This document shows, piece after piece, positions 5,793-21,460 of a DNA stretch of 64,000 nt. Origin of the DNA: Candidatus Woesearchaeota archaeon (lineage in GTDB: Archaea > Nanobdellota > Nanobdellia > Pacearchaeales > GW2011-AR1). How positions within the stretch are numbered: the stretch's first letter is position 1; the number at the start of each line of letters is the position of its first letter. The notes under the pieces were generated by a model, which saw nothing but the letters and a program-made list of their open reading frames with translations, had not been told where the DNA came from and did not search any database. The stretch covers positions 20,880 through 84,879 of the forward strand of contig CAYPFA010000003.1 in assembly GCA_964410025.1 (NCBI GenBank). Reading direction: 5' to 3'. A program made the translations under genes and the position numbers.

Positions 5793-5913
5793 TGAGCCCA
5801 CCAAGATTTGAACTTGGGACCCCCGCCTTTCTTAGCATTTCTGCTTGAAATAATGTTTCTAACGAAACACGTTCTTATAAGAGCGGTGCTCTACCAGGCT
5901 AAGCTATGGGCTC
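5793..5913 (-). tRNA. Intron-containing tRNA, anticodon UAU (tRNA-Ile-like), ~47-nt intron at canonical 37/38 position
   Basis: Minus strand: GAGCCCA-TA-GCTT-AGCCTGGTA-GAGC-A-CCGCT-CTTATA[47-nt intron AGAACGTGTTTCGTTAGAAAC...GCTAAGAA]A-GGCGG-GGGTC-CCAAG-TTCAAAT-CTTGG-TGGGCTC-A. All stems pair. Mature length is 74 nt. Confidence 0.6.
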
Positions 5914-12751: not shown

Positions 12752-13156
12752 ATGATAAAAAGAGCGGTGATTGTTGAGACTCCATTTATGGGCGATGTTC
12801 CAAAAAATGTTATGTATGCTCGAGCCTACTGTAGAGATTGCATAGTAAATCACAATGAAGCCCCATTTTTATCTCATATAATTTATACACAGAGAGGAAT
12901 TTTGAATGATAACAATCCTCCAGAAAGAAATCTCGGAATTGAGGTCGGGTTATATTTCGGACAGTTTATGAAAGCATCAGTTGTTTATACAAATCTTGGA
13001 ATCTCTGGCGGAATGCAAAGAGGAATGGAGAGGGCAGAGAAGGAGGGTAGGGAAATAGTCGTTAGAAAATTAGACGACGATTGGGAAAAAGTTCAGAAGG
13101 AATTAATAGAAGGCATGCCAAATCATCCATTTGCTCTTCATCAAGTTTTCATGTAG
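12752..13156 (+). CDS. Hypothetical protein
   Basis: 134-aa ORF with no recognisable motif. Confidence 0.3.
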   Translation: MIKRAVIVETPFMGDVPKNVMYARAYCRDCIVNHNEAPFLSHIIYTQRGILNDNNPPERNLGIEVGLYFGQFMKASVVYTNLGISGGMQRGMERAEKEGREIVVRKLDDDWEKVQKELIEGMPNHPFALHQVFM

Positions 13157-13278: not shown

Positions 13279-13575
13279 ATGATTTCAGTATACGATATTG
13301 TAGAAAAAGCAGCAAAGACTGGAAAGATTGATAGAGGGATAAACGAAGTTACCAAGGCTATCGAAAGAGGCGTTGCGTTACTTGTTGTTTATGCATCTGA
13401 TGTTAATCCAAAAGAATTGACTCAACATTTACCTATTCTTGCAAAAGAAAAAGGAATAAAATGTATTGAAGCAGATTCAAAACAAAAGTTAGGACTTGCT
13501 GCAGGAATTAGTGTTTCAACTGGCGCAGTAGCTATAATACAAGCTGGCGACGCGAAACTTGATTCTTTACAATAA
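13279..13575 (+). CDS. rpl7ae: 50S ribosomal protein L7Ae (kink-turn binding)
   Basis: VEKAAKTGKIDRGINEVTKAIERGVALLVVYASDVNPKELTQHLPILAKEKGIKCIEADSKQKLGLAAGI matches L7Ae/L30e. Head of a conserved L7Ae-S28e-L24e cluster. Confidence 0.85.
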   Translation: MISVYDIVEKAAKTGKIDRGINEVTKAIERGVALLVVYASDVNPKELTQHLPILAKEKGIKCIEADSKQKLGLAAGISVSTGAVAIIQAGDAKLDSLQ

Positions 13576-13624
13576 TTAAAATTATTATTTGTAGGTAAGA
13601 AACTAATTAATTTAAATTCATAAC

Positions 13625-13921
13625 ATGGCTAAAGATCAACGAACAAAGGATGTACAAGGAAGTGCTACTAAGGGTTCTGATAAAATTATGGAAGCAGGCG
13701 GAGCTGTTCCCGGTATCGTTGAAGCTGTTGTCGGAAGAACTGGTTCTAGAGGCGAATTAACACAGGTTAAGGTTAGAGTTTTGCAAGGAAAAAATGCTGG
13801 AAAACAAATCAGAAGAAATGTTAGAGGACCAATCAAACCAAGAGATGTTTTAATGATGAGAGAAACTGAAATTGAAGCAAGAAAATTAATGAAAAGAATA
13901 CAAAAGGGAGCGTTCAGCTAA
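13625..13921 (+). CDS. rps28e: 30S ribosomal protein S28e
   Basis: VVGRTGSRGELTQVKVRVLQGKNAGKQIRRNVRGPIKPRDVLMMRETEIEARKL matches the S28e family. Confidence 0.85.
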   Translation: MAKDQRTKDVQGSATKGSDKIMEAGGAVPGIVEAVVGRTGSRGELTQVKVRVLQGKNAGKQIRRNVRGPIKPRDVLMMRETEIEARKLMKRIQKGAFS

Positions 13922-13922
13922 A

Positions 13923-14126
13923 ATGCCAAGATGCTCATTCTGCAAATCAACCTATGAATTTCCACTAGGTGTTACTGTAGTTCAAAAAGATGGAACAGCT
14001 AGAACATATTGCTCTTCTAAATGTAGAAAGAATTCTGAGATGGGAAGAGACAATCGAAAAGTTAAGTGGGTTACGAAGAATAAGGAAGCTGTAGAAGCTG
14101 AAAGATTAGAAAGAAAGAACGCTTAA
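13923..14126 (+). CDS. rpl24e: 50S ribosomal protein L24e
   Basis: MPRCSFCKSTYEFPLGVTVVQKDGTARTYCSSKCRKNSEMGRDNRKVKW matches the L24e zinc-binding family. Confidence 0.85.
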   Translation: MPRCSFCKSTYEFPLGVTVVQKDGTARTYCSSKCRKNSEMGRDNRKVKWVTKNKEAVEAERLERKNA

Positions 14127-14402
14127 ATGGAACAAGAAAAATACCAACTTCAAGAAAGCATAAAATATTCTACTGATTCGGGTTCAAAATATTCTTTACA
14201 ACGACCAATTTATTCTCCATCGATGATGTATTCCAGATTTAACAATTTATATAACGGAAGATATTAAATTCTTAAAATTAGCGTGATTAAACAGACAACT
14301 AACTGACAAATTACTCAGCCTATTTCATTCTGCTTCAAATAAACACCCTATTAGTAAATTAAAATTAATAAACTAAGATCCAAATAAACATTAATCAACT
14401 AA

Positions 14403-14771
14403 TTACTGACAATGACGACAGTTGATACTTGGACTGCCAGCATTATTGCATGAACATGGATCATCATACCAACACGTAGGACTGTCAGAGCTGCATATGT
14501 TCTTATCGCAAGAGCATTCACTGTCACATGCACAATGCTTCTCACATTGACAGTAATCGTTACAACGACAGTGTCTGCACTCACTATCGCACCTACACTC
14601 TGTATTGCAGTCGCACTTATAATCATCGCAACTTGAGCTTTGTGCATCGCAACTGCAACCAAAAGTTTTTTCTGCGATTGTTCCCTTGCCGCTTCTCAGC
14701 AAGACTGCTCTTATTAACTTAGAATCTTCTGGTGTTGTGCTTAAGATGAACCTGTCGTTTGGTTTTTGCAT
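14403..14771 (-). CDS. Cys-rich precursor-like peptide 1 (conserved leader + 22-Cys core with CxC[D/N]xxC heptads)
   Basis: MQKPNDRFILSTTPEDSKLIRAVLLRSGKGTIAEKTFG then CSCDAQSSSCDDYKCDCNTECRCDSECRHCRCNDYCQCEKHCACDSECSCDKNIC.... It is a paralog of ORF 15472..15789 and co-directional with the rSAM and peptidase. Confidence 0.6.
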   Translation of the reverse strand: MQKPNDRFILSTTPEDSKLIRAVLLRSGKGTIAEKTFGCSCDAQSSSCDDYKCDCNTECRCDSECRHCRCNDYCQCEKHCACDSECSCDKNICSSDSPTCWYDDPCSCNNAGSPSINCRHCQ

Positions 14772-14806
14772 TATATTTTATACTTTTTAGATTTAAATAA
14801 ATTGTG

Positions 14807-15469
14807 CTAAATAATTACTACTCCCCAGTCCAAAGCTGAGATGTCTCTAATTCTGTTAAAATCTGAAAATAGCATGTGCTTATTCGCGCCCGCAAAACTT
14901 GGACCAGAATTGTGATAAATTATTCCAGTAGAGTCATACCCTACCAAGGGAATATAATGTCCTCCAAAACGATTTACTTTTAAGAAGGAATCGTAATTTA
15001 ATAAGACGATGGGGATTCGCCCGCTGTCTATTTTCTTTAATAAAAATTCTAGGGGTGGGCGTGATGGTTTCTTCTGCGATAACTCGTCTGCAAAAACTTC
15101 TTTATTTATTTCTGCAACTTTTTCTAAATTTATTGAGGATAAAAGATTTTCTGCGAATTCTCCATAGAACTTTTTACTAGCTTGTCTTAATTGCTCTATA
15201 TCTGTAGGATCGCATAACATTGGATCTTTTATGAAATATTCTACCGGGACTCCTAGTTTTCTACAGGCGAGAACAATCTGAGTAGGCAGTGTCAATTCTT
15301 TTTCCTCGTGCCTAGTTAATTCATTTAGTTCTTCAAAGGAAAATTCTCTTTCGGGCAATCTGACTTTCAACGCGGACATCATCGCTGCCTGGGCGCAATT
15401 TCTTTTCTGGCTTAAAAAAAATGGAACTTGCATTTTATCTAATAATTTATCCAAAATAATCTCCACCAT
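14807..15469 (-). CDS. Papain-like Cys peptidase, C39-like (putative leader peptidase)
   Basis: 220 aa. N-terminal Q-x3-NCAQAAMMSAL resembles the C39 catalytic Cys motif (Q...CG.A.L). Downstream GGHYIPLVGYDSTG supplies candidate His/Asp. Confidence 0.5.
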   Translation of the reverse strand: MVEIILDKLLDKMQVPFFLSQKRNCAQAAMMSALKVRLPEREFSFEELNELTRHEEKELTLPTQIVLACRKLGVPVEYFIKDPMLCDPTDIEQLRQASKKFYGEFAENLLSSINLEKVAEINKEVFADELSQKKPSRPPLEFLLKKIDSGRIPIVLLNYDSFLKVNRFGGHYIPLVGYDSTGIIYHNSGPSFAGANKHMLFSDFNRIRDISALDWGVVII

Positions 15470-15471
15470 TT

Positions 15472-15789
15472 TTACTTCACACGGAAATCAAAATCATCAT
15501 AAGGGCATGCACCGTGATGCTCATTACAGCTACAATAATTATCACATCTGCATGGCTCTTTATAATCTACGCAAATACAATGTTTACATTGTGAATCGCA
15601 CCTACATTGTACGTTGCAGTCACATTGAGGATCGCAGTGACTATCACAACTTGAGCTTTGTGTGTCGCAACTGCAACCAAAAGTTTTTTCTGCAATTGTT
15701 CCCTTGCCACTTCTCAGCAAGACTGCTTTTATTAACTTAGAATCTTTATGTGTTGTACTTAATATGAACCTATCTTTTGGTTTTTGCAT
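15472..15789 (-). CDS. Cys-rich precursor-like peptide 2 (same leader, 16-Cys core). Start moved to internal ATG 15789 preceded by GGAGG.
   Basis: MQKPKDRFILSTTHKDSKLIKAVLLRSGKGTIAEKTFG then CSCDTQSSSCDSHCDPQCDCNVQCRCDSQCKHCICVDYKEPCRCDNYCSCNEHHGAC.... GGAGG 9 nt upstream of the internal Met. Overlaps the 3' end of the rSAM gene. Confidence 0.6.
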   Translation of the reverse strand: MQKPKDRFILSTTHKDSKLIKAVLLRSGKGTIAEKTFGCSCDTQSSSCDSHCDPQCDCNVQCRCDSQCKHCICVDYKEPCRCDNYCSCNEHHGACPYDDFDFRVK

Positions 15790-17200
15790 TGTCAATTTCC
15801 TCCGAGGCATTTAATCTTTGAAGTATTTGGCTTTTTAAAAGTCCTCTGTTAATCACGCATCTAGCATTATTTGTTGAGTCTAGAATTTTTCCTGATTGCT
15901 CCAATACCTTGGCCGGGCAGTCGCCTGCACAGTTATATTTTGCAAAACAATCTTCACAAAATTCCATATTTGTTACTTTTCTGTTTCGGAGATTTTCTAT
16001 GTTTTCTAAGTTGAAATCTATTTTGCCGGTCGTCTCATTGTATTGCCCAATCTTAAATGAATTAAAAATTGGGCTCTCTTCCCTACAAGCCTCAAGACAA
16101 GTAGTTACAAATCCCGTCGGAGTAATGAAAAAATTTCCACCGCATGCACCGCAAAATGTTTCACTGATCTTGTCTATCGAACCGCCTGAATAATAAAATG
16201 AAACTCCTAAATCTTTTGCTCTTTTTTCAGCAATAAGCATTTGTTCTAGAAAAACACCTGGGTCCGGTGCTTTGGCTCCAGTTGTTTGACATCGTCCGCA
16301 TTCAAATAAAGGTTCTAGATGAAAACTTTTGTTCCGAGATATTGAAGAGAAAAATTCTAAAATTTCTGGAATTCTCTTTACGCTATAGTCCGTTATTGTT
16401 GCCCGCATCCCATAGTTATAACTTTTTCCATCTTTTGCTTTGGCTTGATCAAGGTATTTAATTGTCCTAACTACATCATTGAAAGAACCCTGTCCGCCTT
16501 TTTTCGGTCTTTGCCTATTTTGAATATCTTCCGGTCCGTCTATGGAAATATTAATCCTATCAAAATTTTCTACTGCCCACTGCATTGTTTCTAAAGAATG
16601 AACTCCATTTGTTACTACATCTGCACGACTTTTAAGTCCAGCAGCAGATGACGTTTCTTTTAAATACGCAAGCGCATAGTTAATGAGTGGCAAATTACTA
16701 GACAATAAAGGTTCGCCTCCGCCATGAAAACCCACGTTAACATTATCCGATTTTTTTTTAAGTGCATTTTCGACAATAAAATCTATAGATGCCTTTGCTA
16801 TCTCTGGTTTTATAACTTGAGACAGATCGCCTGCACAAGCATAGCAATACTCACAATTAAGATTGCATCCAAATGTCGGTAGAAGCGTAACAGATGTAGG
16901 ACTATAATGTGTCTCATGGCAAGATGAGCAGGAGGATGATTTATTTTGTCCTTCCGGAACTAAAATTCTTGTCTTGAATAAATGTTCTGCCAATACAGGA
17001 TCTATTTCATATGGATTTGCCCCTTGTTGTATCTTGAAAAAAAAGTTTTCAACTCCTGGCGTAACCTCTACGACCGAGCCAGCAAGAGGAGCATAAAGAA
17101 TAGTTCTGTTTTCAACCGGAATCTTAAATAATTCGGAAGTTATTCTAAGCTTATCTTGGTCTGTTGCCATGAGTCTGATACTACTTTGGAGTTTCGTCAC
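15770..17200 (-). CDS. Radical SAM enzyme with C-terminal SPASM-like Cys-rich domain and ~100-aa N-terminal extension (putative RiPP maturase)
   Basis: CxxxCxxC at ~residue 112 (TFGCNLNCEYCYA). GGGEPLL motif. C-terminal CGACGGNFFITPTGFVTTCLEAC...CEDCFAKYNCAGDCPA auxiliary-cluster cysteines. Confidence 0.8.
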   Translation of the reverse strand: MTKLQSSIRLMATDQDKLRITSELFKIPVENRTILYAPLAGSVVEVTPGVENFFFKIQQGANPYEIDPVLAEHLFKTRILVPEGQNKSSSCSSCHETHYSPTSVTLLPTFGCNLNCEYCYACAGDLSQVIKPEIAKASIDFIVENALKKKSDNVNVGFHGGGEPLLSSNLPLINYALAYLKETSSAAGLKSRADVVTNGVHSLETMQWAVENFDRINISIDGPEDIQNRQRPKKGGQGSFNDVVRTIKYLDQAKAKDGKSYNYGMRATITDYSVKRIPEILEFFSSISRNKSFHLEPLFECGRCQTTGAKAPDPGVFLEQMLIAEKRAKDLGVSFYYSGGSIDKISETFCGACGGNFFITPTGFVTTCLEACREESPIFNSFKIGQYNETTGKIDFNLENIENLRNRKVTNMEFCEDCFAKYNCAGDCPAKVLEQSGKILDSTNNARCVINRGLLKSQILQRLNASEEIDNAKTKR

Positions 17201-17304: not shown

Positions 17305-18876
17305 ATGGCAGATATAAGGGCGGTGATAGCGGCAGTCGTGCCAGATCGCTATTCTGCGATAGATCCAGATCAAATAAAGAAAATAATTCATTCAAATGGG
17401 ATTGCTAAGGCAATAGAGAAAATCGAGAATAAATCCGAGGGTAAACCCAAAATAAAACCCCTTTCTTCTTATAGTCTTATTTACGACTCTCCACAAAATC
17501 AGCTCGAACCAGTATACTATTGGATTTTAGATTTTATGGAAAATTTGCCCGGCGTTAAGGTAGATAAAGTTGCAGATAATTTTATGGCCTCTCCGGGAAG
17601 CGGACAATTTTCAGAAATGGGCGCGAAGGCAACAGCGATGCAGCAACAGGCAACAAAACTTCTTGCTGATACGAATACTTTAGTAAAGACAATTCTAAAT
17701 CTAGTTTATGATTTAAAAGAATTTGAAATGAGACTTGAGCAATATAAGAGAGCAAATTCCAAGGATAAAAAAGAACAAGAAGAAGGAATGCTTGCATTAA
17801 AAAATATTTGGTTGGATCAAGTAGATTTGAAGAGAGGAAGGGGAAGTATTCATCAAATGTCTGCAGAAATGGGATACACTACTTTACGAGAAGCATTTTT
17901 AGTTGCCAATGATGTTGAAAGTTTAAAGAAAATGGCCGGTCCGGATGGAGTCATAAATGATTCGGTGCTTAGAGTGTTAATTCCGAGAATGGGTGAATTT
18001 TTAATTTGGAAAGATATGTCAGAAAAAGAATTAACAAAAAGATTTGAAATAGAAAAATCTTATTTAAAGTCTGAAGTCGAAAATTTAAAAATGTATACAA
18101 AATGGGCTCGTCCATATTTAAAAGCTGCAGAAGAATTAAGAATGAAGGGTTTTGAAAACCACGCAGCATTAGTAAGTGCTTTTTCTACTTCAATGTTTGA
18201 GCTTACCCTAATGGGAACAAGCAAGGCAAAAATGCAGCCAGTTTATGAAAAGGCCGGTTATAAATTAAAAAGAGATTATTCTGCAGTTCTTATCGTTTCT
18301 CTTAAATATAGAGGGCATCTCGGACAAAAGGCGGGACAGGGAGGACAGAGTGGTTACACATACTCTTTTGGCGGAAGATTTGATATAACATTTGATTGCT
18401 ATGCATTAAATTCTGAAGAAATGGCTTTAGTAAAAAAAACCATGGAAGATGCTGATATTGGAGACGGCATTACTCTTGTTGAAAGAAATACGGGTGTTGC
18501 TTTAGAACAACTCAAGGAAGATATAGATCGTTTCACGGGCGATAAAGAAAAGAAAAAAGAAGAAGAAAAAGCGAAAAAAGAAGATGACATAAATCCGTTC
18601 AGCGCCATATTTAATCTTTCAACGTTTTCATTCGGAGGGAAAAAAGAAGACAAAAAAGAAATTAAGTCTCCCAAGGATATAGAAAAAGATAATTTTGTAG
18701 AAAAAATAGTTAGAAAAGATGCAGCAGATAAAGCCAATACTTTTTTGTATTTAGTATATGATATTTATAAGAAAGCTCATGCAATGGCTTCCTCTCCAGA
18801 GAATTTTGACAACGGTAAAGTTGAAAAATCTGAAAAGGATATGGCAGGATTATTTAAAGAAACATTTTTGAATTAG
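17305..18876 (+). CDS. Large hypothetical protein, K/E-rich C-terminal third
   Basis: 523-aa ORF. No recognisable catalytic motif. Divergent from the rSAM gene. Confidence 0.4.
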   Translation: MADIRAVIAAVVPDRYSAIDPDQIKKIIHSNGIAKAIEKIENKSEGKPKIKPLSSYSLIYDSPQNQLEPVYYWILDFMENLPGVKVDKVADNFMASPGSGQFSEMGAKATAMQQQATKLLADTNTLVKTILNLVYDLKEFEMRLEQYKRANSKDKKEQEEGMLALKNIWLDQVDLKRGRGSIHQMSAEMGYTTLREAFLVANDVESLKKMAGPDGVINDSVLRVLIPRMGEFLIWKDMSEKELTKRFEIEKSYLKSEVENLKMYTKWARPYLKAAEELRMKGFENHAALVSAFSTSMFELTLMGTSKAKMQPVYEKAGYKLKRDYSAVLIVSLKYRGHLGQKAGQGGQSGYTYSFGGRFDITFDCYALNSEEMALVKKTMEDADIGDGITLVERNTGVALEQLKEDIDRFTGDKEKKKEEEKAKKEDDINPFSAIFNLSTFSFGGKKEDKKEIKSPKDIEKDNFVEKIVRKDAADKANTFLYLVYDIYKKAHAMASSPENFDNGKVEKSEKDMAGLFKETFLN

Positions 18877-18916: not shown

Positions 18917-19537
18917 ATGGTTGAAGTAAAAATAAAAAAAAATTTAGATGACGAAGTTAAAAGTCTTGAGAAAAAATTAAACGAGCTTATTAAAAAAAAT
19001 TCCCCACAAAAAGAAAAAGATAATTCTGAAAAAAAATTAGATAAAAAAGAAGATTTGAAAAAAGAAACTATAGAAAATGAGTTGCCAGTAGAAGAAAATA
19101 ATTCCAGAGATTTTACATCTTCTTCATTAATGACATCGCAAAACATTTCTTTAGGTCCGGAAGGTTTAGGTTTTGCAAATTCCAGAGCAGGTTTACAGAA
19201 TACTCAAAATCTTGAAAAGAATCTTCAGTTCGTGGAAACAGCATCGGGAGAAAAAAAGCAAGAGGCGCTTTACAGTGAGGCAAGAAATAGCTATGAATCA
19301 TCCGATAACAATAGAAAATTAGTGCAGAATGTGCCAGACAATAATCCTCTTACAAGATCAATAGTAACATCAAACTCTTCTGGTCAGATGCGAGGATCTC
19401 GTGTAGTCGAAAATTCTTCCGGAGATTCTGAAGATAATCTTGAAGGCACAACAAAATATGCACCAGTTCAAATCAGCACAACAAACACTCTGCCGTGGGA
19501 AAGGCCTTCGGATAGGTTCAAAAAATACACAGGATAA
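18917..19537 (+). CDS. Hypothetical low-complexity (K/E/S/N-rich) protein
   Basis: 206-aa ORF, predicted disordered and coiled-coil-like. Confidence 0.3.
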   Translation: MVEVKIKKNLDDEVKSLEKKLNELIKKNSPQKEKDNSEKKLDKKEDLKKETIENELPVEENNSRDFTSSSLMTSQNISLGPEGLGFANSRAGLQNTQNLEKNLQFVETASGEKKQEALYSEARNSYESSDNNRKLVQNVPDNNPLTRSIVTSNSSGQMRGSRVVENSSGDSEDNLEGTTKYAPVQISTTNTLPWERPSDRFKKYTG

Positions 19538-19567: not shown

Positions 19568-21460
19568 ATGGGTGATACTAGTTACGAAAATTTTTATGGC
19601 GGAGGAATCTCTAGTTTTGATTCCAATTATTCTTCAGGTGGAGCTTTTCTGGGAAATCATGATTATAAAATGTCAAATAATCTAGGATTTCCAGGCTCTG
19701 CTCAAACAGCAAATCAGCTCAAGGAAACCGTTAATGCAATCAAGCAGGGTGTGAAAGCATTCGAGGTTACAATGGTTAGTCCAGAAACTGCCGATCAAAT
19801 TCCCATACAAAATTTTGATGAAATGCGTGCGTTAATGAAATTAACTGGAGTCAAGCCATCCGTTCACGCGCCAATTATAGATCCATCGGGTTTCGAACAA
19901 CGAGCAGGATATAGCGAGGAGCATAGAAAAGAGGCTGAAAGAAAATTATTTGACACGCTAAAAAAAGCAAGCATGTTAGATAGGGAAAATAATGTTCCAG
20001 TCGTAATTCACTCGACAGCCAATGTTCAGGGCGCAGAATATCGTCCAGGAGACGAGTCAAAAGGAGAATCGAGATGGAATAGAGTTTCACTAGGTGTATT
20101 TAATAAACAGAGTAAACAAATCGCCGGAGTAATTCCAGAAGAAAGAGAATACGCTTTAGATATGAGTGCAAAAGATTATGCTAATGGCGGTAAACTAACG
20201 AAAGCAGAAGACATGATTGCAAAAGAAAATAAAAGCAGTTGGATAAAAGAAAAAGAGCACATAAATTATTACACACGTATAATGGATCAAGAGGTTGAAA
20301 GTTTTAATAGACAAGGGCTGGATAAGACTGGAGATATAGAAGATAAAGAAATACAAAAAAGTTTTTTAAGCAATATTAATCGTGCTCAGGGTCTCGTTGA
20401 AACGAATCAAGAACAGGTTAATCAGCTCTGGAATAAGCTCGGAAAATTTGGTACAGATGAACAAAGAGGAGAGCTAAAGAAAATTTCAGAAAAGTATGCG
20501 GATGATGTAAAAAAGTTTGATGAGAAAAAGAAGGAAGCAATTGATGATGAAGCCAAAAAAAGATTGATTGTTGAAAAGGCTCAATTTATAAATAGCGTCT
20601 ATGAAGATCTAAACAACATAACTAGCGGCTACTCCCCTCATGATAAAAATAAACTAGAAACTAAAGAGTCTGAAGAAAAATGGGGAGCTCCCAAGATACT
20701 TGTAAACGCAGAAGAATTTGCAAAGGAAAAGGCAGCTGAGACTTTGGGCGCAGTTGCATGGAGAGGATATAAAGAACTTGGAGGAGAAAAGGCTCCGATG
20801 ATTGCGGTAGAAAATATGTATTCAGGCATGGCTTTCTCGAGGGCAGAAGACATGGAGGGATTGATAAAGAATTCAAGAAAAAAATTTGTTGAGAATGCGA
20901 AAAAAAATGGTATGGATGAAAGAGATGCTAGTGCAGCAGCAGAAAAATTAATAGGAGTTACTTGGGACGTTGGACATCTTAATTTATTTAAAAAATCTGG
21001 ATTTACGGATAAGGATGTAATTGGTGAAACGGCAAAAATTGCGCCTTTAGTTAAACATGTTCATCTAACTGATAATTTTGGCTATTCAGATTCTCATCTC
21101 GCTCCCGGAATGGGAAATGTGCCATTTAAAGAAATTCTTAAAGAACTCGAGAGAACTGGAAAACTAGGCGATATGAGAAAGATTGTTGAGGCACCAGGTT
21201 TCTTCCAACATTTTCAAAAATCTCCTCACTCATGGACCATGGCGGCGCTAGGAAGCCCAATCTACGGCGGAATGATGGGTCCCTATTGGAATCAGGCATC
21301 GGGAGTTTCAAGTGGCGGCGGATATATGGGCGGACCTATGGCTTATCTTCCAGAGAAACATTTTTCAACCTACGGAAGCGGATTTTCATCCTTGCCAGCA
21401 GAACTGGGCGGACAACTTCCAGGGACACAATCGAGATTTAGTGGGACGCCGAATACTTAG
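19568..21460 (+). CDS. Xylose-isomerase-like TIM-barrel (sugar phosphate isomerase/epimerase/AP-endonuclease-2 fold) protein with a long K/E-rich insertion
   Basis: C-terminal VKHVHLTDNFGYSDSHLAPGMGNVPFKEILKELERTGKLGDMRKIVEAPGF matches the PF01261-type H-x-H-l-D...H-l-G-G-idf...GY-G...E pattern. N-terminal barrel-like start (FEVTMVSP...PSVHAPIIDPS). The middle ~200 aa is charged. Confidence 0.45.
   Translation: MGDTSYENFYGGGISSFDSNYSSGGAFLGNHDYKMSNNLGFPGSAQTANQLKETVNAIKQGVKAFEVTMVSPETADQIPIQNFDEMRALMKLTGVKPSVHAPIIDPSGFEQRAGYSEEHRKEAERKLFDTLKKASMLDRENNVPVVIHSTANVQGAEYRPGDESKGESRWNRVSLGVFNKQSKQIAGVIPEEREYALDMSAKDYANGGKLTKAEDMIAKENKSSWIKEKEHINYYTRIMDQEVESFNRQGLDKTGDIEDKEIQKSFLSNINRAQGLVETNQEQVNQLWNKLGKFGTDEQRGELKKISEKYADDVKKFDEKKKEAIDDEAKKRLIVEKAQFINSVYEDLNNITSGYSPHDKNKLETKESEEKWGAPKILVNAEEFAKEKAAETLGAVAWRGYKELGGEKAPMIAVENMYSGMAFSRAEDMEGLIKNSRKKFVENAKKNGMDERDASAAAEKLIGVTWDVGHLNLFKKSGFTDKDVIGETAKIAPLVKHVHLTDNFGYSDSHLAPGMGNVPFKEILKELERTGKLGDMRKIVEAPGFFQHFQKSPHSWTMAALGSPIYGGMMGPYWNQASGVSSGGGYMGGPMAYLPEKHFSTYGSGFSSLPAELGGQLPGTQSRFSGTPNT

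What the first reader, a model, noticed from the sequence alone, without database searches (positions are those of the whole stretch)
14403..15789. Paralogous precursor-like ORFs: conserved leader through GCSCD.QSSSCD, then CxC[D/N]xxC heptad-repeat cores; metallothionein-like alternative
The two ORFs are near-identical for ~52 residues and then diverge in length and sequence. Both keep a strict heptad in which Cys at positions 1 and 3 is followed by Asp/Asn/Glu at position 4 (CRCDSEC, CRCNDYC, CQCEKHC, CACDSEC, CSCDKNIC / CDCNVQC, CRCDSQC, CRCDNYC, CSCNEHHGAC). Regular spacing of Cys next to an acidic or amide residue is what ranthipeptide-type Cys-to-Asp/Asn thioether crosslinks would require. 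CxC repeats are also the hallmark of metallothioneins, so a metal-binding role cannot be excluded. At DNA level this appears as a ~21-nt periodicity of TGC/TGT codons. That periodicity also produces the spurious antisense ORFs 14399..14662, 14528..14722 and 15507..15740.
Basis: seen in the sequence. Interest (0 to 1): 0.6.

Follow-up and report, generated by a model that had tools for sequence, protein, structure and literature searches.

The report
Cysteine-repeat peptide precursors beside radical-SAM enzyme
Two small cysteine-rich genes in a tiny-celled archaeon are real and are almost certainly raw material for a neighbouring radical-SAM enzyme that cross-links peptides; they belong to a widespread, undescribed peptide family found in archaea and bacteria.

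Summary
The two ORFs are real (14403-14771 and 15472-15789, minus strand). They share a conserved 38-residue leader and differ in their Cys-rich cores. 13 of 14 CxC motifs are followed by Asp/Asn/Glu, far more than shuffles give. The repeat unit is six residues (18 nt), not seven (21 nt).

They sit in one operon: radical-SAM/SPASM maturase, pepA, standalone C39-like cysteine peptidase, pepB. The contig is archaeal and probably DPANN.

In 161 related loci, leader profiles hit 98 of 23,184 ORFs. 96 of these lie directly downstream of the maturase homologue on the same strand. Cores range from 4 to 27 Cys, but the CxC[D/N/E]xx hexad recurs. Bacterial members add a PqqD-like protein, a second radical-SAM enzyme and U32 peptidases.

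The maturase is most similar to the thioether-forming CteB. It scores far below every curated family cut-off.

The precursor reading is well supported. A plain metallothionein reading is not. Thioether chemistry is inferred only; sequence statistics favour Cys-x-x-Asp/Asn/Glu, with Cys N-terminal to the acceptor.

No Pfam or NCBIfam model and no paper I could search describes these precursors. I rate it a new variant of a known kind.

The parts
15770..17170 (-). Radical-SAM/SPASM peptide maturase (466 aa from ATG 17170; the mechanical ORF list extends to GTG 17200). Predicted N-terminal RRE-like domain, CX3CX2C at C102/C106/C109, and a full SPASM cysteine set (C291, C294, C340, C358, C405, C408, C414, C418, C438).
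   Evidence: Pfam Radical_SAM, Fer4_12 and SPASM. Best NCBIfam hits are SCIFF maturase (114.6 bits), PapB (110.9) and CefB (105.7), all far below cut-offs. Closest PDB sequence is CteB 5wgg, E=8e-22. AF2 model pLDDT 89; Foldseek top hit CteB, E~3e-23, TM 0.70-0.77. Invariant Cys columns in 28 homologues. Public gene calls give 466 aa.
15472..15789 (-). pepA, precursor peptide, 105 aa. Leader is about residues 1-38 (15676-15789), ending EKTFG. Core has 16 Cys (15475-15675). The start overlaps the maturase stop by 20 nt, and a GGAGG lies 8 nt upstream.
   Evidence: Leader HMM hit E=3.4e-8. Present in public collections as P0002.
14807..15469 (-). Standalone C39-like papain-fold cysteine peptidase (220 aa; catalytic Cys25 and His171). 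Presumed leader peptidase. No transmembrane or ABC-transporter domain.
   Evidence: 135 homologues. Cys25 and His171 are invariant in 40 aligned members. The profile hits the ComA peptidase domain 5xe8/3k8u, E=2.6e-5, at both catalytic motifs. Pfam Guanylate_cyc_2 matches 30 of 40 members, Peptidase_C39_2 21 of 40 and Peptidase_C39 8 of 40. Homologues lie next to the maturase in L007/L089 and L098.
14403..14771 (-). pepB, precursor peptide, 122 aa. Leader is about residues 1-38 (14658-14771). Core has 22 Cys (14406-14657). It lies 35 nt after the peptidase gene. A TTTAAAT box at 14791-14797 could be its own archaeal promoter (seen by eye, not tested).
   Evidence: Leader HMM hit E=1.7e-8. Identical protein found on 8 public contigs with the same operon.

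Best explanation
pepA and pepB are ribosomally made precursor peptides (RiPP precursors) of a compact archaeal operon: radical-SAM/SPASM maturase, pepA, C39-like peptidase, pepB.

Shown:
- The gene pair 'maturase followed by a peptide with an M-x-K-P-N-[D/Y]-R-[L/F] N-terminus and a Cys-rich core' is conserved across DPANN archaea, CPR bacteria, Bacteroidota, Desulfobacterota and others.
- The leader is conserved while the core is hypervariable and often multi-copy.
- The core is built from C-x-C-[D/N/E]-x-x hexads.

Inferred:
- The maturase's N-terminal RRE-like domain binds the leader.
- The radical-SAM site abstracts a hydrogen from the side chain of the Asp/Asn/Glu that lies three residues after a Cys. 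That Cys, held on an auxiliary Fe-S cluster as proposed for CteB and PapB, forms a thioether.
- This yields many small Cys(i)-to-Asp/Asn/Glu(i+3) rings along a 67-84-residue core.
- The C39-like peptidase then removes the leader near the conserved [E/D][K/R]TF(G) junction.

No transporter is encoded in the operon, so the product may act inside the cell. Its biological role is unknown.
For: Operon:
- The four genes are co-oriented and tightly packed, with a 20-nt overlap, a 2-nt gap and a 35-nt gap.

Maturase:
- Radical-SAM plus SPASM with invariant cluster cysteines.
- Closest curated families are the thioether formers SCIFF maturase and PapB.
- Closest solved structure is CteB, by sequence and by fold over the whole length including the N-terminal domain.

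Co-occurrence:
- 107 of 148 related loci with room downstream carry a leader-HMM hit or a Cys-rich ORF right after the maturase.
- 96 of 98 leader-HMM hits among 23,184 ORFs are directly downstream on the same strand. Of the other two, one is upstream and one is far downstream, both on the same strand; there are none on the other strand.
- Low-Cys members with the same N-terminus fill several apparent gaps.

Precursor anatomy:
- Leader dN/dS is 0.2 with dS 0.27, while core dS is saturated. The leader is hydrophilic.
- There are 1-4 leader-HMM hits per locus. The Cys-rich ORF scan lists up to five after the maturase in L006, and L001 has four.

Hexad rule across the family:
- In 52 archaeal-type precursors, the residue after CxC is D/N/E in 69% of cases, and in 79% inside CxCxxxC, against a 32% background.

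Orientation:
- A Cys sits at -3 from D/N in 51% of cases and from E in 57%, against 19% for other residues.
- A CxC at the 3' end of an array is still followed by D/N/E in 53% of cases. A CxC at the 5' end is preceded at -3 by D/N/E in only 11%.
- PapB accepts Cys-Xn-Asp with n=0-6 (PMC9413430 abstract).

Accessory genes:
- The C39-like peptidase has conserved Cys and His.
- Bacterial relatives carry a discrete PqqD-like (RRE) protein in 40 loci.
Against: - No chemistry was observed. Thioether formation and the acceptor residue are inferred.
- The maturase scores 3-4 fold below the cut-off of every curated thioether-forming family. Related SPASM enzymes do other chemistry: TigE, ChlB and anSME are the next structural hits.
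- In the bacterial wing, position 4 of the hexad is often His, Gln or Val, and position 6 is Val in 70% of cases. Asp/Asn is therefore not a universal acceptor.
- There are two Cys per hexad but only one strongly conserved acidic or amide position, so about half of the Cys may stay free.
- The leader has no clear double-glycine site for a C39-type peptidase.
- The peptidase is present in only a few related loci.
- The AF2 model of pepB is unstructured (pLDDT 44). That fits a substrate peptide but equally fits an apo metal-binding peptide.
Confidence: 0.72

Rival explanations
1. The peptides are metallothionein-like metal binders (or Fe-S/metal carriers). CxC thiolates chelate metal, and the radical-SAM enzyme is either unrelated or only tailors a metallopeptide. 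A milder version is that the enzyme cross-links some Cys and the mature product's job is metal binding.
For: CxC is a classic metallothionein motif (general knowledge). There are two Cys per hexad but only one strongly conserved acceptor, so many thiols could stay free. No transporter is in the operon. pepB has no predicted autonomous fold, as expected for an apo metal-binding peptide.
Against: No metallothionein family matches at E<=0.1. The peptides carry a conserved 38-residue Cys-free leader under purifying selection. That leader occurs only directly after maturase homologues. Asp/Asn/Glu after CxC is not a metallothionein feature, and aromatic residues (Tyr, His, Trp, Phe) are common in the cores. 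Cys counts are even in only 24 of 58 members and range from 4 to 27. The pepA start overlaps the maturase stop.
Confidence: 0.12
2. They are true substrates of the radical-SAM enzyme, but the modification is not a Cys-to-Asp/Asn side-chain thioether. Alternatives are alpha-carbon (sactionine) thioethers to any neighbouring residue, Cys oxidation of the anSME type, epimerisation, or C-C cross-links.
For: The maturase fails every curated family cut-off. Its fold neighbours include TigE, ChlB and anSME, which do other reactions. Bacterial relatives often have His, Gln or Val at hexad position 4 and Val at position 6. That would suit an acceptor-independent alpha-carbon linkage.
Against: The best sequence and fold matches are the non-alpha thioether formers CteB, SCIFF maturase and PapB. 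In the archaeal-type clade the D/N/E enrichment three residues after Cys is strong, and it persists at array ends. An alpha-carbon or Cys-only chemistry would not require that.
Confidence: 0.15
3. The ORFs are chance reading frames produced by compositional periodicity and are not genes.
For: Short ORFs with no database annotation. Overlapping alternative-frame ORFs exist.
Against: Homologues with the same leader and the same position occur in about a hundred loci from both domains. Leader dN/dS is 0.2. The identical proteins recur on eight independent public contigs.
Confidence: 0.01

Closest known systems
Freyrasin system PapA/PapB (ranthipeptide, Paenibacillus polymyxa)
   Same: A radical-SAM/SPASM maturase acts on a precursor with a regular array of Cys-Xn-Asp/Glu motifs. 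Cys is N-terminal to the acceptor. PapB tolerates n=0-6 (PMC9413430). PapB is one of the two best NCBIfam hits.
   Different: PapA has six CX3D motifs with one Cys each (PMC9413430). Here the unit is a C-x-C-[D/N/E]-x-x hexad with two Cys and spacing n=2. There are up to 22 Cys in this window and 27 elsewhere. Cores are 67-84 residues. The PapB model scores 110.9 bits against a cut-off of 340. The leader motif is unrelated and the host is archaeal.
SCIFF / thermocellin system CteA/CteB (six-Cys-in-forty-five)
   Same: Closest maturase by sequence (5wgg, E=8e-22) and by fold (TM 0.70-0.77 over the full length including the N-terminal leader-binding domain). The precursor gene is adjacent. No dedicated exporter is present.
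   Different: From general knowledge, SCIFF peptides are about 45 aa, highly conserved, have six Cys and are single copy, and CteB makes a Cys-Thr gamma-thioether. Here the cores are hypervariable, repeated and multi-copy, and the SCIFF maturase model scores 114.6 against a cut-off of 425.
QhpC/QhpD (cross-linked small subunit of quinohemoprotein amine dehydrogenase)
   Same: A radical-SAM/SPASM enzyme installs several Cys-to-Asp/Glu thioethers in a polypeptide of roughly 80-110 residues (general knowledge). In size this is the nearest analogue of a heavily cross-linked mini-protein.
   Different: No amine dehydrogenase genes are present. The QhpD model scores 74.5 against a cut-off of 453. 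The leader and repeat architecture are absent in QhpC.
NxxcA/NxxcB (streptococcal Asn-x-x-Cys beta-thioether)
   Same: The hexads also contain [D/N]-x-x-C, and Asn is a proven thioether acceptor in that system (general knowledge; the family is named in PMC11851443).
   Different: Array-end statistics here favour Cys upstream of the acceptor, not downstream. Similarity to NxxcB was not tested.
Other curated repeated-Cys radical-SAM target families (Cys-every-fifth CefA/CefB, CXXX-repeat, CcpM Cys-rich peptide)
   Same: Regularly spaced Cys in a precursor next to a SPASM maturase. CefB is the third-best NCBIfam hit (105.7 bits).
   Different: The spacing rule differs (2+4 hexad with D/N/E). All models are far below cut-off. 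None of the precursor models match.
Metallothioneins
   Same: High Cys content with CxC motifs.
   Different: A conserved Cys-free leader, obligatory maturase adjacency, D/N/E after CxC, abundant aromatic residues, and no Pfam metallothionein match.

Membership tests
Radical-SAM/SPASM RiPP system (general) | Maturase with a CX3CX2C radical-SAM motif and a SPASM domain with the seven-Cys motif for two auxiliary clusters | tested here: met
   Pfam Radical_SAM 1.8e-13, Fer4_12 and a weak SPASM hit. C102/C106/C109, C340-x12-G-x4-C358, C405-x2-C-x5-C-x3-C418 and C438 are invariant in 28 homologues.
Radical-SAM/SPASM RiPP system (general) | Leader-binding RRE (PqqD-like winged helix), fused or separate | tested here: met
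   The AF2 model has an N-terminal beta-strand/three-helix domain (residues 8-72, pLDDT about 90). It aligns with CteB over the full length. There is no sequence-level PqqD hit in the window protein. Bacterial relatives have a separate PqqD-family gene upstream in 40 loci.
Radical-SAM/SPASM RiPP system (general) | Adjacent small precursor with a conserved leader and a variable core | tested here: met
Ranthipeptides (non-alpha thioether peptides) | S-C-beta or S-C-gamma thioether between Cys and an acceptor side chain in the mature peptide | not testable with these tools
   Needs mass spectrometry or NMR. Only indirect support exists: Cys-x-x-[D/N/E] enrichment.
PapB family ranthipeptide maturase (NF047865) | Score at or above the curated cut-off of 340 bits | tested here: not met
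   110.9 bits. Relatives score 111.9-157.
SCIFF system (TIGR03974 maturase, six-Cys-in-45 peptide) | Maturase at or above 425 bits, and a conserved precursor of about 45 aa with six Cys | tested here: not met
   Maturase scores 114.6 bits. No SCIFF precursor model matches pepA or pepB. The cores have 16 and 22 Cys.
Double-glycine leader / C39 processing | Papain-fold peptidase with catalytic Cys and His of the C39 type | tested here: met
   Cys25 and His171 are invariant. The profile matches the ComA peptidase domain. Pfam C39-like families match family members.
Double-glycine leader / C39 processing | GG/GA/GS cleavage motif at the end of the leader, and a peptidase fused to an ABC exporter | tested here: not met
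   The leader ends ...SGKGTIAEKTFG with no GG. The peptidase is a 220-aa standalone protein with no transporter in the operon.
Metallothionein | Match to a metallothionein family, a Cys-rich protein without a leader and largely without aromatic residues, and a stand-alone gene | tested here: not met
   No Pfam or NCBIfam hit at E<=0.1. There is a 38-residue Cys-free leader. Tyr, His, Trp and Phe occur in the cores. Maturase adjacency is obligatory. Metal binding itself was not testable.
   The maximum Kyte-Doolittle mean over 11 residues is 0.7. The leader has 7-9 basic and 3-4 acidic residues spread throughout. Related leaders are strongly acidic.

The most novel reading that the evidence does not exclude
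This is the archaeal face of an undescribed, cross-domain RiPP class. Each C-x-C-[D/N]-x-[E/D] hexad would be stitched into two overlapping Cys(i)-to-acceptor(i+3) thioether rings. The result would be a rod-like, hyper-cross-linked mini-protein with up to about 20 or more cross-links. It would be kept, often in several divergent copies, by genome-reduced DPANN archaea and CPR bacteria. That would suggest a role in their symbiotic lifestyle, such as surface or host interaction, or metal or redox handling, rather than a role as a classical antibiotic.
Probability: 0.2. Interest if true: 0.75.

Novelty: new variant of a known kind. Interest (0 to 1): 0.55.

Why it matters
According to a 2025 survey, only two archaeal RiPPs, both haloarchaeal lanthipeptides, had been experimentally validated, and radical-SAM RiPP clusters in DPANN archaea are known only as antiSMASH predictions (PMC12144867). 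This locus gives a concrete, minimal test case of four genes.

It also defines a precursor family that can be recognised by three features: an N-terminal KPN[D/Y]R motif, an [E/D][K/R]TF junction, and CxC[D/N/E]xx hexads. The family spans DPANN archaea, CPR bacteria and many other bacterial phyla. It has no Pfam or NCBIfam model.

If the hexads are cross-linked as inferred, the products would be among the most densely cross-linked ribosomal peptides known. The maturase would then be a useful multi-site cyclisation catalyst.

Tried and rejected
- Sequence search with pepB alone, and with a 28-member precursor profile, found only 3 and 12 proteins. Small ORFs are under-called in public gene sets. 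The family had to be reached through the maturase instead.
- Pfam and NCBIfam scans of the window precursors and of seven relatives gave nothing.
- Ten literature searches found no description of the family. They included searches on sequence strings such as CRCAPVH, KPNYRL and CSCNKVC.
- The AF2 model of pepB is unstructured (pLDDT 44). It does not discriminate between a substrate peptide and an apo metal binder.
- The heptad/21-nt periodicity was rejected in favour of hexad/18 nt. A DNA tandem-repeat origin was also rejected.
- A secretion-signal reading of the leader was rejected.
- An NxxC-type orientation, with the acceptor upstream of Cys, was considered and is disfavoured by array-end statistics.
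- The conserved neighbours (523-aa, 206-aa and 630-aa proteins) could be part of the system, but this could not be decided. An in-place inversion would keep them adjacent whether or not they are linked, and none has an informative homologue.
- The organism name could not be recovered from cluster look-ups.
Full report
**What is at the coordinates**

On the minus strand there are four tightly packed genes:
- A radical-SAM enzyme, 17170 to 15770. The mechanical ORF starts at GTG 17200, but public gene calls and a TTTAAATA box about 34 nt upstream favour ATG 17170.
- pepA, 15789 to 15472, 105 aa.
- A 220-aa ORF, 15469 to 14807.
- pepB, 14771 to 14403, 122 aa.

The pepA start codon overlaps the end of the enzyme gene by 20 nt, and a GGAGG lies 8 nt upstream of it. 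pepA and the 220-aa gene are 2 nt apart. pepB follows after 35 nt, with a TTTAAAT box at 14791-14797 that could be its own promoter (seen by eye, not tested).

The window is archaeal. It carries ribosomal proteins L7Ae, S28e and L24e immediately downstream at 13279-14126. GC content is about 33%. The nearest named relatives of the enzyme are from Pacearchaeota, Woesearchaeota and Nanoarchaeota, so a DPANN archaeon is the likely source. That assignment is an inference.

**Checking the observation**

- pepA and pepB are 65% identical overall (E=2e-42). 44 of the first 49 residues are identical, and they then diverge with indels.
- 13 of 14 CxC motifs are followed by Asp, Asn or Glu. With Cys positions fixed and the other core residues shuffled, 0 of 20,000 (pepB) and 137 of 20,000 (pepA) shuffles reach the observed count.
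- The 'strict heptad' and the '21-nt periodicity' are not correct. The unit is the hexad C-x-C-[D/N/E]-x-x. Cys autocorrelation peaks at lags 2, 6 and 12. TGY codons peak at 18 nt, not 21.
- Tandem Repeats Finder sees no DNA repeat in the genes. The pattern is therefore maintained at the protein level.
- One of the three 'antisense' ORFs (14399..14662) is actually on the same strand in another frame.

**The neighbours**

The 466-aa enzyme:
- It has Radical_SAM, Fer4_12 and SPASM signatures.
- Its best NCBIfam matches are the SCIFF maturase (114.6 bits), PapB (110.9), CefB (105.7) and the Nif11-peptide maturase (104.3). All are three- to five-fold below their curated cut-offs.
- In 28 homologues the CX3CX2C motif and the full SPASM cysteine set are invariant.
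- The closest solved protein is the thioether-forming CteB (5wgg, E=8e-22).
- An AlphaFold model (pLDDT 89) has an N-terminal strand/helix domain, the radical-SAM barrel and the SPASM domain. It matches CteB best over its whole length (E about 3e-23, TM 0.70-0.77). TigE, ChlB and anSME follow.

The 220-aa ORF:
- It belongs to a family of 135 mostly stand-alone proteins of about 200-220 aa.
- Cys25 and His171 are invariant.
- Its profile matches the ComA double-glycine peptidase domain at both catalytic motifs (E=2.6e-5).
- Family members hit the Pfam C39-like families: Guanylate_cyc_2 30 of 40, Peptidase_C39_2 21 of 40, Peptidase_C39 8 of 40.
- It has no membrane or transporter part.

**Related loci**

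- Direct searches with the peptides find almost nothing: 3 and 12 proteins. One hit (P0003) lies in a locus (L001) where a 57%-identical maturase is followed by four tandem paralogous precursors.
- Searching through the maturase gave 253 homologues at E<1e-20 and 160 loci with flanks.
- These loci come from Pacearchaeota, Woesearchaeota, other archaea, CPR/Patescibacteria, Bacteroidota, Desulfobacterota, Planctomycetota, Acidobacteriota and others.
- A crude scan finds a Cys-rich ORF on the same strand right after the maturase in 97 of 143 loci with room.
- Two leader HMMs, one archaeal-type and one bacterial-type, were run against all 23,184 stop-to-stop ORFs of these loci and the window. They give 98 hits outside the window. 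96 lie directly downstream on the same strand, one lies upstream on the same strand and one lies far downstream. None lies on the other strand. In the 64-kb window only pepA and pepB hit.
- Combining both criteria, 107 of 148 loci carry a precursor. Several of the rest carry low-Cys peptides with the same KFRLED-type N-terminus that my filters missed.
- Multi-copy precursors occur mainly among the archaeal-type loci: 1-4 leader-HMM hits per locus, and up to five Cys-rich ORFs after the maturase in L006.

**Anatomy of the family**

- The leader starts at the very N-terminus with M-x-K-P-N-[D/Y/F]-R-[L/F/I].
- It has an alternating hydrophobic stretch in the middle (LIRAVLL here).
- In the archaeal-type clade it ends with [E/D]-[K/R]-T-F just before the first Cys.
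- Cores vary from 4 to 27 Cys.
- In 52 archaeal-type precursors, the residue after CxC is D/N/E in 69% of cases, and in 79% within CxCxxxC, against a 32% background. Position 6 is E, D, H or Y.
- In 57 bacterial-type precursors the hexad is C-[S/T]-C-[N/D/H/Q/V]-x-V.
- Long archaeal-type cores share one conserved break of register, C-[K/R]-H-C-x-C-[V/N]-D-Y. It is present in both window peptides. I cannot explain it.

**Leader or signal peptide?**

- Between pepA and pepB the leader has dN/dS 0.2 and dS 0.27, while synonymous sites in the core are saturated.
- The leader's maximum 11-residue hydropathy is 0.7, and charges are spread throughout it.
- It is therefore not a Sec or Tat signal.

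**Which way might the cross-links run?**

- Cys is found three residues upstream of Asp/Asn in 51% of cases and of Glu in 57%, against 19% for other residues.
- A CxC at the 3' end of an array, with no further Cys, is still followed by D/N/E in 53% of cases.
- A CxC at the 5' end is preceded at -3 by D/N/E in only 11%.
- This favours Cys-x-x-Asp/Asn/Glu with Cys N-terminal to the acceptor, as in PapB substrates. PapB accepts Cys-Xn-Asp with n=0-6 (PMC9413430).
- It disfavours the Asn-x-x-Cys orientation of the streptococcal NxxC system.
- This is a statistical inference, not chemistry.

**Accessory genes elsewhere**

- Homologues of the C39-like peptidase lie next to the maturase in L007/L089 and L098 as well.
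- Bacterial loci commonly add three things: a second radical-SAM paralogue (50 loci), a separate PqqD-family protein upstream (40 loci) and Peptidase_U32-family proteins downstream (21 loci). A PqqD-like RRE protein is a hallmark of RiPP pathways (general knowledge).

**The metallothionein rival**

- No metallothionein family matches.
- The conserved Cys-free leader, the strict maturase adjacency, the D/N/E rule, the frequent aromatic residues and the odd or even Cys counts (24 of 58 even) all argue against a plain metallothionein.
- A metal-binding role for the mature, partly cross-linked product cannot be excluded. About half of the Cys have no obvious acceptor.
- The AF2 model of pepB is unstructured (pLDDT 44) and does not help here.

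**Comparison with known systems, and novelty**

- In architecture and likely mechanism this is a radical-SAM/SPASM RiPP system of the ranthipeptide type.
- It is not a member of the PapB, SCIFF, CefB, CcpM, QhpD or CXXX-repeat families by their curated thresholds.
- The precursors have no Pfam or NCBIfam model.
- Ten full-text searches, including searches on sequence strings, found no description.
- A 2025 survey notes that radical-SAM RiPP clusters are predicted across archaea, including DPANN, but that only two lanthipeptides, both from Haloarchaea, had been experimentally validated (PMC12144867).
- I therefore rate it a new variant of a known kind: real, coherent and testable, but not a new principle.

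**Verdict**

The genes, the leader/core split and the CxC[D/N/E] rule hold. The period is a hexad, not a heptad.
- The precursor interpretation is supported. The thioether chemistry remains inferred.
- Interest 0.55.

Noticed in passing
window 17305-18876 (+), 18917-19537 (+), 19568-21460 (+): A 523-aa protein has no Pfam, NCBIfam or PDB match. It is followed by a 206-aa protein and a 630-aa protein with a C-terminal AP_endonuc_2/MJ1311-like TIM barrel. Homologues of the 523-aa and 630-aa proteins lie beside the maturase-precursor cassette in at least four other genomes (L001, L006, L007/L089, L157/L158), in both relative orientations (the 206-aa protein gave no tblastn hit; L001 has a gene of the same length). 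The cassette is inverted in this window relative to L001. Whether this is lineage synteny or a functional link is unresolved.
   Followed up: partly
window 5793-5913 (-): Rfam finds a tRNA (53 bits) spanning 121 nt that ARAGORN did not call. It is probably an intron-containing archaeal tRNA.
   Followed up: no
window pepB residues 65-73 (about 14553-14579) and pepA residues 68-76 (about 15562-15588): The hexad register is interrupted by a conserved motif, C-[K/R]-H-C-x-C-[V/N]-D-Y. Related forms recur in the middle of long cores in many relatives (P0003, P0125, L135; looser variants in L106, L087, L088, L102). It may be a recognition or nucleation site. It is unexplained.
   Followed up: partly
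window 14658-14771 versus 15676-15789: Synonymous divergence between the two leaders is low (dS 0.27), whereas the cores are saturated. This suggests gene conversion of the leader or swapping of cores between paralogues.
   Followed up: partly
L019, L030, L037, L039, L069, L059 and other bacterial loci: Bacterial relatives of the system carry two tandem radical-SAM paralogues, a separate PqqD-like protein with a hydrophobic N-terminus, and one or two Peptidase_U32-family genes. Their precursors end in conserved CRCAPVH or HYW[Y/H]PN tails. This is a richer, also undescribed, version of the pathway.
   Followed up: partly
window 12752-13156 (+): A DUF7768 protein (E=2.9e-24) sits between the ribosomal protein S2 and L7Ae genes. 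Its function is unknown.
   Followed up: no
L013, L014, L012, L108, L109, L112, L115: Bacteroidota- and Phycisphaerales-labelled contigs carry maturases 40-46% identical to the archaeal one. Some carry precursors with the archaeal-type ...ERTF junction, for example MKNFKLPNEL...NSERTFTDRCTCEDY. This suggests transfer between DPANN archaea and bacteria, or mis-binning.
   Followed up: no
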